Positions 2,592-14,202 of a stretch of DNA of 64,000 nucleotides are shown here, in pieces. The stretch lies in the NCBI RefSeq assembly GCF_048403405.1, contig NZ_CP183129.1; one strand, 5' to 3'. Position 1 is the stretch's first letter. Each line of letters starts with the position of its first letter. Under the pieces are notes generated by a model, which did no database searches, was not told the DNA's origin, and was given only the letters and a program-made list of their open reading frames with translations. The position numbers and the translations under genes are program-made. The stretch comes from Escherichia coli. Lineage in GTDB: Bacteria > Pseudomonadota > Gammaproteobacteria > Enterobacterales > Enterobacteriaceae.

Positions 2592-4016
2592 TTACTGCAT
2601 TAACAGGTAGATGGTGCTGTCGCCGCGCTGAATGTTCAGTGCCAGCACAGATGGTTTGCTGTCGAGAACTTTACGCAGTTCAGCGATGTTTTTCACTGCC
2701 TGCTGGTTCGCGCCAATAATCACATCACCTTTTTTCAGGCCGATCTGCGCAGCCGGAGTGCCCGTTTTCACGTTGTTCACTACCACGCCCTGATCTTTGC
2801 CTTTGTTGCTCATCTCAGCGCCTTCAATGCCGTTGAAGATGGAGCTGGAATCAACCTGATTCTGGCTGCTCTGCTGCAGTTCCAGGTTCACGTTAACCTG
2901 CTTACCGTCGCGCAGTAAGCCCAGGGTCAGTTTGCTGCCCACCGGCATAGTACCCACCTGAGCACGCAGGGCGGCAAAGCTGCTGATCGGCTTACCGTTC
3001 AGTGAGGTGATCACATCACCCGCTTTAATGCCCGCTTTTGCAGCGGAGGAATTAGGCAGAACCTGGCTTACGAAAGCACCGCGCTGGGCGTCAACTTTCA
3101 TCGCTTTCGCCAGTTCAGAGTTCAGCTCAGTCCCCATAATACCCAGCTCACCGCGTTTCACCTGGCCGTATTCCACCATCTGCGAGGTCAGGTTTTTCAC
3201 CATGTTACTCGGGATAGCAAAACCGATACCGATGTTGCCGCCGTCCGGTGCGAGGATCGCGGTGTTGATACCGATCAGTTCGCCGTTCAGGTTAACCAGC
3301 GCACCACCGGAGTTACCACGGTTGATCGCTGCATCGGTCTGGATGAAGTTTTCGTAGTTTTCAGCATTCAGGCCGCTACGCCCCAGCGCAGAGACAATCC
3401 CGGAAGTTACCGTCTCGCCCAGACCAAACGGGTTACCAATCGCTACGGTGTAATCACCCACGCGCAGTGCATCAGAATCCGCCATCTTAATTGCGGTCAG
3501 ATTTTTCGGGTTCTGGATCTGGATCAGCGCGATATCAGAGCGCGGATCTTTGCCAACCATCTTCGCGTCGAACTTACGACCATCGCTCAGCTGGACTTTA
3601 ATCACCGTCGCGTTATCAACAACGTGGTTGTTGGTGACAACATAGCCTTTATCGGCATCAATGATGACGCCGGAACCCAGCGCCATGAATTTCTGTTGCT
3701 GGCCGCCGCCATTACCGCCCTGGCCCCCCTGGCAGAACGGAGAGCTCTGGAACGGAGAACCTTCCTGGCAGAACGGAGAATCATCACCGAAGAACTGCTG
3801 GAAATTACGCGGCATACGCGGCGTATTAACGGTTGTGCTACCTTCTACGTTAATGCTGACCACTGAAGGCATCACCTTTTCGAGCATCGGTGCAAGGCTT
3901 GGCATCTGCTGGGCTGTCGTTGCTGAAGAAGTCTCAGCCGCCGTTGCAGAGAGCGGAGATAACGCCAAACCTAAACTCAGAGCCAGTGCACTCAGTGCTA
4001 ATGTGGTTTTTTTCAT
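2592..4016 (-). CDS. degP: Periplasmic serine endoprotease DegP (HtrA)
   Basis: 474-aa ORF with signal peptide, GNSGG serine-protease motif and two PDZ-like C-terminal regions; recognised as DegP. Confidence 0.95.
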   Translation of the reverse strand: MKKTTLALSALALSLGLALSPLSATAAETSSATTAQQMPSLAPMLEKVMPSVVSINVEGSTTVNTPRMPRNFQQFFGDDSPFCQEGSPFQSSPFCQGGQGGNGGGQQQKFMALGSGVIIDADKGYVVTNNHVVDNATVIKVQLSDGRKFDAKMVGKDPRSDIALIQIQNPKNLTAIKMADSDALRVGDYTVAIGNPFGLGETVTSGIVSALGRSGLNAENYENFIQTDAAINRGNSGGALVNLNGELIGINTAILAPDGGNIGIGFAIPSNMVKNLTSQMVEYGQVKRGELGIMGTELNSELAKAMKVDAQRGAFVSQVLPNSSAAKAGIKAGDVITSLNGKPISSFAALRAQVGTMPVGSKLTLGLLRDGKQVNVNLELQQSSQNQVDSSSIFNGIEGAEMSNKGKDQGVVVNNVKTGTPAAQIGLKKGDVIIGANQQAVKNIAELRKVLDSKPSVLALNIQRGDSTIYLLMQ

Positions 4017-4061
4017 GTATTTCAGTCTCGATTAACAGATAACGCAAAATTGCTGTGTTCT

Positions 4062-4089
4062 TCAGATTCGTTTTATAGCGCGAAGTTCC
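4062..4089 (-). promoter_or_regulatory. Sigma-E dependent degP promoter (GGAACTT-N16-TCTGA on minus strand)
   Basis: Motif GGAACTT...TCTGA read about 45-70 nt upstream of degP ATG; matches the classical sigma-E promoter pattern; GTAAA-like CpxR half-sites lie just upstream (about 4110..4140). Confidence 0.6.
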
Positions 4090-4145
4090 GAACTAAAGTT
4101 TCTGCAAAAGGTAAAAATTTATTGTTCGTCTTTACAAAAGCCTGG

Positions 4146-5663
4146 TTATTGTTCTACGGCCATCAGACGTCGGTATTCATCCCAGGCATAGAGGTCGGTC
4201 ATACCGCTGATATAATCCTGCAGCAGGCGGCAACGGTAATAATATTCCCATAGCGGAAACTCAGGAGAATCTGACGGTAATTTACTGACAGCCTCGACAT
4301 AGGCCAGCCGATGGCGCGTCGAGAGTTTGTTGAATAAGCGCGATTCAATAGGGAAACGTTTCACCCGTTCTTTTTCTACCAGTTCAGTAAAGTCTGATAA
4401 CGACAGGCTTAATAAAGGGCGATAAATCTCTAATAATCCGCTAATGACCCGATAGCCCTGCAATTCAAGCTGCTCGACATCTGGATGGCTAAACACATGT
4501 TTTACAGCGACATTTTTATATAACTTTAGAAGATCGCTGCATTCGCTGGCATCTTCCAATAATGCATGATTAAACGTTCCGGCGAAAATCGCAGGCAGAT
4601 TATCAATAAATCGTTGTGCCGCGTAGGGTACCAGTTTATTTAGGGTGTTTACCCGTAAATACATAAAAAACTGATCTTCCGTACTGCGGCTTAAACTATT
4701 TGAGCGTGATTTTTCCCAGGCATTTTCAACCACCAGCGAAAAGAGCGAACCTTTCTCATGCTGGCCCCACGCTTCGTGCAAATGATGATAAAGCTGCTCA
4801 ACGGTAAATATTCTTTTCTCTACCGCATCTTCAAGGTCTGCCACACAATAGGAGATGTCGTCGGCAGCTTCCATAATCCACGTTAATGGAAAACGACTGT
4901 AAAGCGCCAAATTAAGTTCTTTACGCAACCGGGCAATATAGGCTTCTTCAGAAAGATAATAACCCGGCTTTTTCATTAAATAGTGATGTGTCTCAGGCGT
5001 TTCGCCACGCCACCACGCCGGACGAGTATATTTTAAAATACCGCCAACCTGTGCCCAGGTGAGATTCATCCGCATCAATGTATGCACCAGGCGAATGCCT
5101 TGTGCATTCCCCTCAAAATGACATAAGTCCTGACGAATCTTGCGCCGCAGCTCGTTAAGCGGTTCTTCCCCGTCCCGTAAACGTAGTGCCGCCACGCTGC
5201 AGCGATCGTCAGTCAGAGGCTGGCTTTCGGCATCTTCCGGGTGCAAACGTTGGCGAAACCAGTCATTTATCGCTGCTTCGCCAAAATGACCAAACGGCGG
5301 ATTGCCGATATCGTGCATCAGGCATGACATCTCAACAATGCTTTCAAAGGGGCCGGTCAGTTCATCCAGGCCGTATGCTTCCAGCAATTTAAGCTCTTTC
5401 AGACGGCTTAAAATTTCTTTGGCGATGTAGCGCCCCACCTGCTGGACTTCCATTGAGTGGGTAAGACGCGTGCGCACGGCGGCATTGCGCTCCAGTGGAA
5501 AAACCTGGGTCTTTTGTTGCAGACGACGAATTGCCGGAGAGTTGATGATACGCCCGCGATCGCTCTCGAAGATTCGCAGGATCTCATGTTCGGTTTTAAC
5601 GCCCTGTGGTGAACGGTAACGACGATGCCAGTTTATTTTTTTTCGGAAATCAATCTGTGCCAT
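4146..5663 (-). CDS. dgt: dGTP triphosphohydrolase
   Basis: 505-aa [24 protein letters not shown]... with HD-domain motifs; recognised as Dgt. Confidence 0.9.
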
Positions 5664-13315: not shown

Positions 13316-14202
13316 GCTTTACCTCCGATGGCGTTATCCAGAATACGCACAAAGTGCATTGCCGAAAGCGTCGCGCCATAGAACCAGACCGCCGGAACGC
13401 GCTGAAAACGTCCTGCACGGACAAACGGCATGGCCTGCCACAGCGGGGTTGCCATTAGCGCATCCATGTCTTTGCTGTTGTCGTGATCAAAACAGAGCAC
13501 ATCAACGTCTTTATACGCTGCCAGACGATCGATACTGACGGCGGTACTGCCCCAGAAGTTGGTTTCCCCTTGCCAGGCATTTGGGATGCCGTACTCATCA
13601 AGAATTTCCTGGAACAAGCTGTTTGGACCGAAGACCAACATATGGCGCGGATCGATAAGCGTCGTCAGCAATAACGGGCGTGCACCACGCTTCACAAAGC
13701 GGGGTTTCATGCTGCGGATAAAGTCTTCATAGTGCGCTAAATGCGTTTCTGCTGCGCTTTGCAGGTTAAGTAAATCTGCCATTTCCGTCAGTGATTTACG
13801 CGCCATCGCCAGCGGCTGTTTGCCGTCACTGAAGTTAAATCCGCGACCCGGCGCAATACGTGCCAGCATTTCTGGTGAAGGGCCATATCCTGCCGACCAG
13901 ACCATAAACGATGGTTTCATTTCGGTCAGCAGTTCAAGGTTAGGTTCTGTGCGCAAACCGACGTCGATCACTGAGTCCGGCAATGGTGGTTCGCTGACCC
14001 ACAGGCGATAGTTGATGGTATCCGCCACGCCGTAAGGCACGATGCCGAGCGCCAGCAGTAATTCCACCGGCAACCACTCCAGCGCCACAATACGATTGGG
14101 ATCAATAGCCGCCGCGTGGGCGGTATTCATCTGCCATAACAACGGAGAAAGCGCCATCGCCGTTAACAGTCGACGGCGCGAAATAAGAGGTAAGCCGCTC
14201 AT
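13312..14202 (-). CDS. fhuD: Ferric hydroxamate periplasmic binding protein FhuD
   Basis: ORF 13312..14205; second Met taken as start (MSGLPLISRRRLLTAMALSPLL, Tat-like signal), 296 aa; TGATG overlap with fhuC stop. Confidence 0.9.
   Translation of the reverse strand: MSGLPLISRRRLLTAMALSPLLWQMNTAHAAAIDPNRIVALEWLPVELLLALGIVPYGVADTINYRLWVSEPPLPDSVIDVGLRTEPNLELLTEMKPSFMVWSAGYGPSPEMLARIAPGRGFNFSDGKQPLAMARKSLTEMADLLNLQSAAETHLAHYEDFIRSMKPRFVKRGARPLLLTTLIDPRHMLVFGPNSLFQEILDEYGIPNAWQGETNFWGSTAVSIDRLAAYKDVDVLCFDHDNSKDMDALMATPLWQAMPFVRAGRFQRVPAVWFYGATLSAMHFVRILDNAIGGKA

What the first reader, a model, noticed from the sequence alone, without database searches (positions are those of the whole stretch)
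4062..4140. Textbook sigma-E promoter with adjacent CpxR-like half sites upstream of degP
GGAACTT-N16-TCTGA is present at the expected distance from the degP ATG, with GTAAA-containing A/T-rich sequence immediately upstream. This supports correct orientation and identity of degP and marks the envelope-stress control region.
Basis: established knowledge. Interest (0 to 1): 0.2.

Follow-up and report, generated by a model that had tools for sequence, protein, structure and literature searches.

The report
Known E. coli degP stress promoter
This is the long-known control region of the E. coli degP (htrA) gene, with a sigma-E promoter and a CpxR activator site just upstream; it is correctly identified but ordinary.

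Summary
Observation confirmed, interpretation supported, nothing new.

On the minus strand GGAACTT (4089..4083), 16 nt and TCTGA (4066..4062) occur once in the window; 0 of 100 shuffles gave a match. The element lies in the dgt–degP intergenic region of an O157:H7-like E. coli.

Two independent genome-wide start-site maps of K-12 put the dominant degP start at MG1655 180844. That is window 4056, an A 5 nt after TCTGA and 40 nt before the ATG. This fits published σE geometry.

The upstream GTAAA (4135..4131) opens the curated CpxR box GTAAAGACGAACAAT. A second GTAAA lies inverted at 4111..4115 (+).

Across 111 Enterobacterales degP loci, xGAACTT, the 16-nt spacer, TCTnA and a 25–30-bp GTAAA‑N5‑ACAAT‑N5‑TTTAC block are conserved islands. 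The block sits 45–46 bp from the −35.

The transcript starts on the Rfam HtrA fourU thermometer (4056..4011).

Corrections:
- The element is on the minus strand.
- The −10 matches consensus TCAAA at only 3 of 5 positions.
- GTAAA half-sites alone are not above chance.
- "P3" is Salmonella htrA nomenclature.

Already known; low interest.

The parts
4121..4135 (-). Proximal CpxR box 'degP1', GTAAAGACGAACAAT (-79..-65 relative to the start site)
   Evidence: It is identical to the curated known CpxR site taken from De Wulf 2002. TTTGTAAAGA and CAATA are conserved at 1.64 and 1.55 bits per column over 66 non-redundant Enterobacterales sequences.
4111..4115 (+). Inverted GTAAA pentamer, read TTTAC on the degP strand (-59..-55). 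It is the third element of the conserved GTAAA-N5-ACAAT-N5-TTTAC block.
   Evidence: GTAAA-N15-TTTAC is unique in the window, with 0.04 expected. TTTTTAC is conserved at 1.72 bits per column. It is not part of the curated 15-bp box.
4106..4110 (-). Conserved T-tract (cTTTT, -54..-50), either an UP-like A/T element or the edge of the activator site
   Evidence: Conservation is 1.32 bits per column over 4110-4107. Rhodius 2006 describes A/T-rich UP-like sequence upstream of sigma-E -35 elements.
4083..4089 (-). Sigma-E -35 element GGAACTT (-33..-27)
   Evidence: It matches consensus at 7 of 7 positions. Orthologues carry GGAACTT (57), TGAACTT (41) or GGAACTA (8) of 111. Conservation is 1.62 bits per column.
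4067..4082 (-). 16-nt spacer CGCGCTATAAAACGAA. It contains the dimorphic dinucleotide 4081-4080 (GC here, AG in K-12) and TATAAA at 4077..4072.
   Evidence: The spacer is 16 nt in 107 of 111 orthologues and only weakly conserved, 0.70 bits per column. Difference from K-12. Counts of the two forms: 4028 versus 1388 genomes.
4062..4066 (-). Sigma-E -10 element TCTGA (-10..-6)
   Evidence: Orthologues carry TCTGA (44), TCTCA (34) or TCTTA (24), so TCTnA is conserved. Conservation is 1.25 bits per column. mentions an invariable C in the sigma-E -10 box.
4056..4056 (-). Transcription start site (A), equal to MG1655 180844, giving a 40-nt leader
   Evidence: TSS-seq: 180844, 5'UTR 40. Cappable-seq: 180844, score 41.6, the only strong start between 180669 and 181771. 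The first position of the Rfam thermometer model aligns here.
4011..4056 (-). [quoted passage not shown]
   Evidence: 77 bits against a gathering score of 52, model positions 1-46 of 46. The MFE structure pairs UUUU with the Shine-Dalgarno GAGA and has a bulged C, as described for Salmonella.
2592..4016 (-). degP (htrA) coding sequence, 474 aa
   Evidence: NCBIfam DegP equivalog, 935 bits, cutoff 720. RefSeq annotation.
4146..5663 (-). dgt (dGTPase). Its stop codon lies 10 nt upstream of the CpxR block.
   Evidence: No terminator is predicted between dgt and the promoter.
4271..4285 (-). Distal curated CpxR box 'degP2', GTAAATTACCGTCAG, inside dgt (-229..-215 of the main start). It is centred about 47 bp upstream of the minor start at 4231.
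   Evidence: The minor Cappable-seq start 180669 equals window 4231. Only the AGTAAA half is conserved outside Escherichia, and any constraint beyond coding is inconclusive.

Best explanation
This is the canonical envelope-stress control region of E. coli degP (htrA).

Sigma-E step. RNA polymerase carrying the extracytoplasmic-function sigma factor sigma-E (RpoE) recognises GGAACTT at -33..-27 and TCTGA at -10..-6, separated by the preferred 16 nt. It starts transcription at the A at window 4056, 40 nt before the ATG. Sigma-E becomes available when misfolded outer-membrane proteins trigger degradation of its anti-sigma factor RseA; that part is established knowledge and was not tested here.

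CpxR step. Phosphorylated CpxR binds the conserved block at -79..-55 (GTAAA-N5-ACAAT-N5-TTTAC) and raises transcription further. The gene therefore integrates two envelope-stress pathways.

Translation step. The 40-nt leader is a fourU RNA thermometer that partly masks the ribosome-binding site at low temperature, adding translational heat control.

What is shown and what is inferred. Shown here: the sequence elements, their uniqueness, their fit to the mapped K-12 start site, their deep conservation, and the Rfam match. Taken from the literature: sigma-E and CpxR dependence and CpxR binding. Inferred: how CpxR contacts the polymerase. By position this is most likely an upstream (class-I-like) contact with the alpha subunit C-terminal domain.
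For: - The motif is unique in the window; 0 of 100 shuffles gave a match.
- Geometry fits the sigma-E model of Rhodius 2006: 16-nt spacer, 5-nt discriminator, 26 nt from the -35 to +1, purine start, A/T-rich upstream.
- Two independent genome-wide maps put the K-12 start at 180844, which is window 4056.
- The region is identical to K-12 apart from two spacer bases.
- It is present in 5424 of 5426 E. coli genomes, and the 43-bp core is invariant apart from that dimorphism.
- In 111 Enterobacterales loci the -35 core, the 16-nt spacing, TCTnA and the CpxR block are conserved islands (1.25-1.72 bits per column). Intervening DNA averages 0.25 bits. The block-to-(-35) distance is 45-46 bp in 96 of 104 loci.
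- Klebsiella has the same motif with a mapped start nearby.
- The curated CpxR site has this exact 15-mer.
- degP rises 26.6-fold in cpxA24. It rises 32-fold with NlpE overproduction and 6.4-fold when cpxR is deleted.
- DegP is placed in the core sigma-E regulon.
- The thermometer match is full length and begins at the start site.
Against: - No experiment was done on this strain; start-site and regulator evidence come from K-12 and Salmonella.
- The -10 matches consensus at only 3 of 5 positions.
- The CpxR 15-mer matches GTAAA-N5-GTAAA at only 7 of 10 positions and would not be found by consensus search.
- Salmonella and Klebsiella have an extra start inside the sigma-E -10, so sigma-E need not be the only polymerase form used here.
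- The thermometer hairpin folds no better than shuffled sequence (z = 0.69). That is expected for a weak thermosensor but is not independent support.
Confidence: 0.95

Rival explanations
1. An overlapping sigma-70-type promoter shares this DNA and is the real target of CpxR. It would use TATAAA in the sigma-E spacer (4077..4072) as its -10 and start about 7 nt upstream of the sigma-E start, inside TCTGA. The sigma-E promoter would then work independently of CpxR.
For: S. Typhimurium has a constitutive low-level htrA start giving a 47-nt UTR, 7 nt upstream of the 40-nt-UTR stress start. K. pneumoniae has a start at 207608, on the G of TCTG, with more reads (25) than the downstream start (11). 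TATAAA-like sequence is kept in the spacer in Enterobacteriaceae. From my own memory, Danese et al. 1995 reported that Cpx activation of degP was only partly sigma-E dependent.
Against: Neither E. coli dataset reports a start at 180837; only 180844 appears. The sigma-70 scan finds no promoter-like site in the intergenic region, so any -35 is poor. TATAAA is not conserved in Yersinia, Serratia or Erwinia, while the CpxR block is. The idea is already described for Salmonella, so it would not be novel.
Confidence: 0.15
2. The T-rich half of the conserved block (TTTTTACCTTTT, 4117..4106) is an UP element contacted by the RNA polymerase alpha subunit rather than a CpxR half-site. CpxR would then use only the curated 15-bp box.
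For: Rhodius 2006 reports A/T-rich UP-like conservation at -48/-49 and -57/-58 of sigma-E promoters. The T-tract here spans -61..-50. The curated CpxR box stops at -65.
Against: The A and C of TTTAC are each conserved in about 88-89% of non-redundant sequences, which is unusual for a purely A/T-tract element. The pentamer is an exact inverted GTAAA two helical turns from the first one. Window positions -48/-49 are G and C, not A/T.
Confidence: 0.3
3. The GGAACTT-N16-TCTGA match is a coincidence and degP is transcribed from elsewhere, for example by read-through from dgt or from promoters inside dgt.
For: No terminator is predicted between dgt and degP. Minor starts exist inside dgt at 180669 and 180283. 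Salmonella has long-leader htrA transcripts.
Against: The dominant start (score 41.6 versus 1.6-1.8) lies 5 nt after the -10. The motif is unique in the window and conserved across an order of bacteria with fixed spacing.
Confidence: 0.01

Closest known systems
E. coli K-12 degP (htrA) promoter degPp, one of the two founding sigma-E promoters (Lipinska 1988 and Erickson & Gross 1989, as cited)
   Same: The sequence is the same from the dgt stop codon to the ATG. That includes the -35, the -10, the CpxR block, the start-site position and the leader.
   Different: Two spacer bases differ (window 4081-4080 GC, K-12 AG). The window's form is the majority E. coli allele, 4028 versus 1388 genomes. 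It is also the form seen in E. albertii and Salmonella arizonae.
Salmonella Typhimurium htrA promoters: the proximal stress-only start with a 40-nt leader (htrAp3), plus the 47-nt-leader and 215-nt-leader (htrAp1) starts
   Same: It shares GGAACTT-N16-TCTGA, the 40-nt leader and the fourU thermometer. The E. coli minor start 180669 gives a 215-nt leader, the same length as the htrAp1 leader.
   Different: The Salmonella start 7 nt upstream (47-nt UTR) is not detected in the two E. coli datasets. The 215-nt-leader start is very weak in E. coli, 1.8 versus 41.6.
CpxR-activated promoters with a GTAAA-N5-GTAAA box, for example cpxP (GTAAAACAACGTAAA)
   Same: There is an upstream GTAAA-containing site on a Cpx-induced envelope gene.
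   Different: The second half-site here is ACAAT, 2 of 5 matches. A third, inverted GTAAA follows 5 bp later. The core promoter is sigma-E-type rather than sigma-70-type.
rpoH P3, the standard sigma-E reporter promoter
   Same: It belongs to the same sigma-E promoter class.
   Different: rpoH P3 is described as regulated by sigma-E only, whereas degP is regulated by sigma-E plus CpxR.

Membership tests
Sigma-E (RpoE) dependent promoter | -35 element GGAACTT | tested here: met
   It matches at 7 of 7 positions, at 4089..4083 (-).
Sigma-E (RpoE) dependent promoter | -10 element TCAAA-like with the conserved C | tested here: met
   TCTGA keeps T, C and the final A, 3 of 5 positions. TCTnA is conserved in 102 of 111 orthologues. 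mentions the invariable C.
Sigma-E (RpoE) dependent promoter | 16-nt spacer between the -35 and the -10 | tested here: met
   The spacer is 16 nt here and in 107 of 111 orthologues. One search gives 16 nt as the preferred length.
Sigma-E (RpoE) dependent promoter | Start at a purine 5-6 nt after the -10 and 26-27 nt after the -35 | tested here: met
   The K-12 start 180844 equals window 4056, an A. The discriminator is 5 nt and there are 26 nt between the -35 and +1.
Sigma-E (RpoE) dependent promoter | Transcription depends on sigma-E in vivo or in vitro | not testable with these tools
CpxR binding site | Tandem GTAAA-N5-GTAAA consensus | tested here: inconclusive
   The first half is exact and the second half, ACAAT, matches 2 of 5, giving 7 of 10 overall. 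The site is not recovered at 2 or fewer mismatches. It is nevertheless the curated site itself.
CpxR binding site | Conserved position upstream of a Cpx-induced promoter | tested here: met
   The block lies at -79..-55. It is 45-46 bp from the -35 in 96 of 104 loci and conserved at 1.55-1.72 bits per column.
CpxR binding site | Binding of CpxR~P and Cpx-dependent induction | not testable with these tools
   Literature only. The site is curated from De Wulf 2002. degP rises 26.6-fold in cpxA24, and 32-fold with NlpE overproduction against 6.4-fold without cpxR.
HtrA 5'-UTR fourU RNA thermometer (Rfam RF02700) | Covariance-model score above the gathering threshold, full length | tested here: met
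   77 bits against 52, model positions 1-46 of 46, window 4056..4011 (-).
HtrA 5'-UTR fourU RNA thermometer (Rfam RF02700) | Four U residues pair with the Shine-Dalgarno sequence, with a bulged C | tested here: met
   The MFE structure pairs U8-U11 with G28-A31 and leaves C13 bulged. This matches the description.
HtrA 5'-UTR fourU RNA thermometer (Rfam RF02700) | Temperature-dependent translation | not testable with these tools
   This has been shown for the Salmonella leader. The E. coli leader differs from the model consensus at only a few positions.
DegP/HtrA protease (identity of the downstream gene) | Equivalog-level HMM match | tested here: met
   NF008189 DegP scores 935 bits, above its cutoff of 720. 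DegQ scores 653 bits, below its cutoff of 756.

The most novel reading that the evidence does not exclude
The activator site may be larger and more symmetric than the curated 15-bp CpxR box. It would be a tripartite operator, GTAAA-N5-ACAAT-N5-TTTAC, with the outer pentamers as inverted repeats two helical turns apart. The block is conserved as a unit, and at a fixed 45-46 bp from the -35, across all sampled families of Enterobacterales. That would imply that CpxR binds in either orientation or as a higher-order assembly on a sigma-E promoter. Alternatively, the third pentamer could double as an alpha-CTD (UP) contact. The original footprinting papers could not be read here and may already cover this region, which would remove most of the novelty.
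Probability: 0.3. Interest if true: 0.25.

Novelty: already known. Interest (0 to 1): 0.07.

Why it matters
The finding is useful as annotation and as a sanity check. It anchors the strand and identity of degP in the window and marks a well-studied node where the sigma-E and Cpx envelope-stress pathways and an RNA thermometer converge on one protease-chaperone gene. It opens no new question. The only mildly informative by-products are:
- an order-wide footprint showing that the activator block is at least as conserved as the core promoter;
- the extent of that block beyond the curated CpxR box;
- a common spacer dimorphism within E. coli.

Tried and rejected
- Several literature look-ups failed or were uninformative. 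Lipinska 1988, Price & Raivio 2009 and the Genes & Development footprinting papers are not held. I therefore could not verify the CpxR footprint limits or the original S1 mapping directly.
- A relaxed sigma-E pattern (one mismatch, TCNNA) is not enriched in the window: 4 found against 3.0 expected. The three other hits, at 13582, 14274 and 26710, were dismissed as chance.
- A CpxR consensus search at 2 or fewer mismatches is barely above chance (68 against 48.9). It misses the proximal site, so it was rejected as evidence for that site.
- The sigma-70 and terminator scan found nothing in the intergenic region.
- My first anchored conservation profile was biased by the anchor and blurred the -35. 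I replaced it with a MAFFT-based profile.
- Conservation of the distal box and the TATTAT inside dgt could not be separated from coding constraint, with only 10 sequences and 2-5 third-codon positions.
- Folding energy of the leader is no better than shuffled sequence, so I did not use it as support.
- I suspected that 'P3' was confused with rpoH P3. The Salmonella htrAp1/htrAp3 nomenclature is the more likely source.

Full report
**What is in the sequence**

The window interval 4062-4140 lies in a 129-bp intergenic region (4017..4145) between two minus-strand genes.
- The downstream ORF, 2592..4016 (-), is DegP. It scores 935 bits against the NCBIfam DegP equivalog, whose cutoff is 720; DegQ falls below its own cutoff.
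- The upstream ORF, 4146..5663 (-), is the dGTPase Dgt.

Read on the minus strand, the sequence is ...TTTTGTAAAGACGAACAATAAATTTTTACCTTTTGCAGAAACTTTAGTTCGGAACTTCGCGCTATAAAACGAATCTGAAGAACACAGC....
- GGAACTT is at 4089..4083.
- A 16-nt spacer follows.
- TCTGA is at 4066..4062.
- The degP ATG is at 4016.

**Is it more than chance?**

- The exact pattern GGAACTT-N16-TCTGA occurs once in 64 kb, and none of 100 dinucleotide-preserving shuffles gave a match.
- A relaxed pattern is not enriched: 4 found against 3.0 expected. The other near-matches in the window are therefore noise.
- The 'GTAAA half-sites' are weak on their own. The window holds 163 GTAAA pentamers, about 0.15 expected per 60 bp.
- The site does not pass a GTAAA-N5-GTAAA search at two or fewer mismatches, and that search is barely above background (68 against 48.9).
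- The arrangement actually present is GTAAA (4135..4131, minus) and an inverted GTAAA (4111..4115, plus) 15 bp apart. It is unique in the window, with 0.04 expected.

**Identity of the locus**

- The 211-bp region matches 5424 of 5426 complete E. coli genomes and is always annotated dgt | degP. It is 100% identical to O157:H7 strains.
- Against K-12 MG1655 (dgt 179237-180754, degP 180884-182308), the intergenic region differs at only two spacer bases directly after the -35. The window has CGCG and K-12 has CAGG.
- The coordinate map is MG1655 = 180884 + (4016 - window position).

- Kim et al. 2012 (PMC3415461, supplementary TSS table) list one E. coli degP start at 180844 with a 40-nt 5' UTR. 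They print the upstream sequence ending ...GGAACTTCAGGCTATAAAACGAATCTGAAGAACA.
- Cappable-seq (Ettwiller et al. 2016, PMC4782308) independently lists 180844 with score 41.6. The only other starts between 180283 and 181771 score 1.6-1.8.
- 180844 is window 4056, an A. It lies 5 nt after TCTGA, with 26 nt between the -35 and +1.
- Rhodius et al. 2006 (PMC1312014) define the sigma-E promoter as follows: GGAACTT and TCAAA, 16 nt strongly preferred, a 5/6-nt discriminator, 26/27 nt from the -35 to +1, a purine start, and an A/T-rich upstream region.
- Every geometric feature is met. The -10 matches at T, C and the final A only, 3 of 5 positions.
- A sigma-70 scan finds nothing in the intergenic region.

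**Regulators, from the literature**

- The same 2006 paper places DegP in the core sigma-E regulon. It cites Lipinska 1988 and Erickson & Gross 1989 for the original htrA work.
- A 2022 compilation of 41 known CpxR sites (PMC9600279, Table S1, citing De Wulf et al. 2002) lists 'degP1' GTAAAGACGAACAAT, which is window 4135..4121 (-).
- It also lists 'degP2' GTAAATTACCGTCAG, which is window 4285..4271 (-), inside dgt.
- The same paper reports degP up 26.6-fold in cpxA24. It is up 32.4-fold with NlpE overproduction, falling to 6.4-fold without cpxR.

**Related sequences**

I scanned one genome per species for a DegP-specific peptide pattern (APMLEKVMPSVV, which distinguishes DegP from DegQ). This returned 120 loci across Enterobacterales, of which 111 had usable upstream DNA.

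| Element | Forms seen in the 111 loci |
|---|---|
| -35 | GGAACTT 57, TGAACTT 41, GGAACTA 8 |
| -10 | TCTGA 44, TCTCA 34, TCTTA 24 |
| Spacer | 16 nt in 107 |

A MAFFT alignment of 66 sequences, each less than 85% identical to the others, shows sharp islands of conservation.

| Region | Mean information (bits per column) |
|---|---|
| TTTGTAAAGA | 1.64 |
| CAATA | 1.55 |
| TTTTTAC | 1.72 |
| cTTT | 1.32 |
| -35 | 1.62 |
| -10 | 1.25 |
| DNA between the activator block and the -35 | 0.25 |
| Spacer | 0.70 |
| 3' end of dgt | 0.49 |

- The distance from the G of GTAAA to the -35 is 45 or 46 bp in 96 of 104 loci.
- The promoter and its activator site are therefore a conserved module from Escherichia to Yersinia, Erwinia, Hafnia, Edwardsiella and Pectobacterium.
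- Relative to +1, the block reads GTAAA (-79..-75), ACAAT (-69..-65), TTTAC (-59..-55).
- The curated CpxR box covers only the first 15 bp, yet the inverted third pentamer is as conserved as the first.
- That pentamer could be a further CpxR contact or an UP-like element. Rhodius 2006 notes A/T conservation near -57/-58. I could not decide between these readings.

**Downstream of the promoter**

- Rfam RF02700, the HtrA 5'-UTR thermometer, matches window 4056..4011 (-) at 77 bits (gathering score 52). The match is full length and its first model position falls exactly on the mapped start.
- The minimum-energy fold pairs UUUU with the Shine-Dalgarno GAGA and leaves a bulged C. This is as described for the 40-nt Salmonella htrA leader (PMC5602114).
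- The fold is no more stable than shuffled sequence (z = 0.69). That suits a thermosensor but is not independent evidence.

**On 'P3'**

- In S. Typhimurium three htrA starts are mapped. One gives a 40-nt UTR and was seen only under stress. One gives a 47-nt UTR and one a 215-nt UTR; both are constitutive and low. Later studies add a 449-nt UTR.
- The 215-nt leader is named htrAp1. The reporter plasmid carrying the 40-nt leader is named htrAp3.
- That Lewis et al. 2009 showed only htrAp3 to be sigma-E dependent is from my own memory.
- The 47-nt start lies 7 nt upstream, inside the sigma-E -10. K. pneumoniae has an equivalent start at 207608, on the G of TCTG, with 25 reads. Its second start at 207617, downstream of the motif, has 11 reads.
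- Such a start needs another promoter. The TATAAA in the sigma-E spacer (4077..4072) is the obvious -10.
- In E. coli neither dataset shows this start, so sigma-E initiation at 4056 dominates there.
- The E. coli minor start 180669 is window 4231 and gives a 215-nt leader, the same length as the htrAp1 leader. It has TATTAT at 4244..4239, and the distal CpxR box is centred near -47 of it.
- Conservation beyond coding constraint could not be established for these elements.

**Variation within E. coli**

- The 43-bp core with the window's CGCG spacer is present at 99% identity or more in 4027 of the 4028 genomes that match it.
- The K-12 CAGG form is present in 1388 genomes. Together they account for 5416 of the 5424 genomes that hold the region.
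- The CGCG form is shared with E. albertii and Salmonella arizonae, so the K-12 form is probably derived.
- Neither variant touches the -35 or the -10.

**Verdict**

- This is the classical degP/htrA sigma-E promoter with its CpxR site, already known in detail.
- Mechanistic steps shown here: sequence elements, geometry relative to mapped starts, conservation, and thermometer membership.
- Steps taken from the literature: sigma-E and CpxR dependence, and CpxR binding.
- Step inferred: how CpxR at -79..-55 contacts the polymerase.
- Interest is low. The only loose end is the architecture of the conserved 25-bp activator block.

Noticed in passing
window 4011..4056 (-): The whole 40-nt degP leader is a full-length match to the Rfam HtrA fourU RNA thermometer (RF02700, 77 bits). 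Its first model position is exactly on the mapped transcription start.
   Followed up: yes
window 4080..4081: The sigma-E spacer is dimorphic within E. coli. GC (as here, reading CGCG) occurs in 4028 complete genomes and AG (K-12, reading CAGG) in 1388. The window's form is shared with E. albertii and Salmonella arizonae, so the K-12 allele looks derived.
   Followed up: yes
window 4231..4285 (-), inside dgt: A minor Cappable-seq start in K-12 (180669 = window 4231) gives a 215-nt leader, the same length as the Salmonella htrAp1 leader. It has a TATTAT -10 at 4244..4239. The second curated CpxR box (GTAAATTACCGTCAG, 4285..4271) is centred about 47 bp upstream of it. Conservation beyond coding constraint was inconclusive.
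   Followed up: partly
window 4063..4077 (-); Klebsiella start-site rows in PMC3415461: Salmonella (47-nt UTR) and Klebsiella (start 207608) initiate inside the sigma-E -10. This implies an overlapping sigma-70-type promoter that uses the spacer TATAAA as its -10. No such start is reported for E. coli in two datasets.
   Followed up: partly
window 4106..4139 (-): The conserved activator block extends about 10-15 bp beyond the curated 15-bp CpxR box. It ends in an inverted GTAAA plus a T-tract that are as conserved as the first half-site across Enterobacterales.
   Followed up: partly
window 4136..4148: The dgt stop codon lies only 10 nt upstream of the CpxR block (8-13 nt in 59 of 89 species). 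No intrinsic terminator is predicted, so read-through from dgt into degP is possible.
   Followed up: partly
window 61182..61295 (+): Rfam match to the sRNA candidate tp2 (RF02030, 103 bits).
   Followed up: no
L059 (Sodalis-like endosymbiont of Proechinophthirus fluctus): The degP homologue has an in-frame stop codon in the N-terminal region just before the conserved PSLAPMLEK motif, suggesting a pseudogene in this endosymbiont.
   Followed up: no
L010, L046 (Yersinia), L030, L080 (Hafnia), L015, L033 (Edwardsiella), L025 (Brenneria): The distance from the sigma-E -10 to the degP ATG grows from about 45 nt in Escherichia to 100-190 nt in these genera. Their leaders are long and lack the Escherichia/Salmonella-type thermometer sequence.
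   Followed up: no
E. coli genome search: Three of the 5425 matches to the dgt-degP intergenic region are on records labelled as plasmids, and one genome has two copies. These could be assembly or labelling oddities, or large chromosomal segments carried on plasmids.
   Followed up: no
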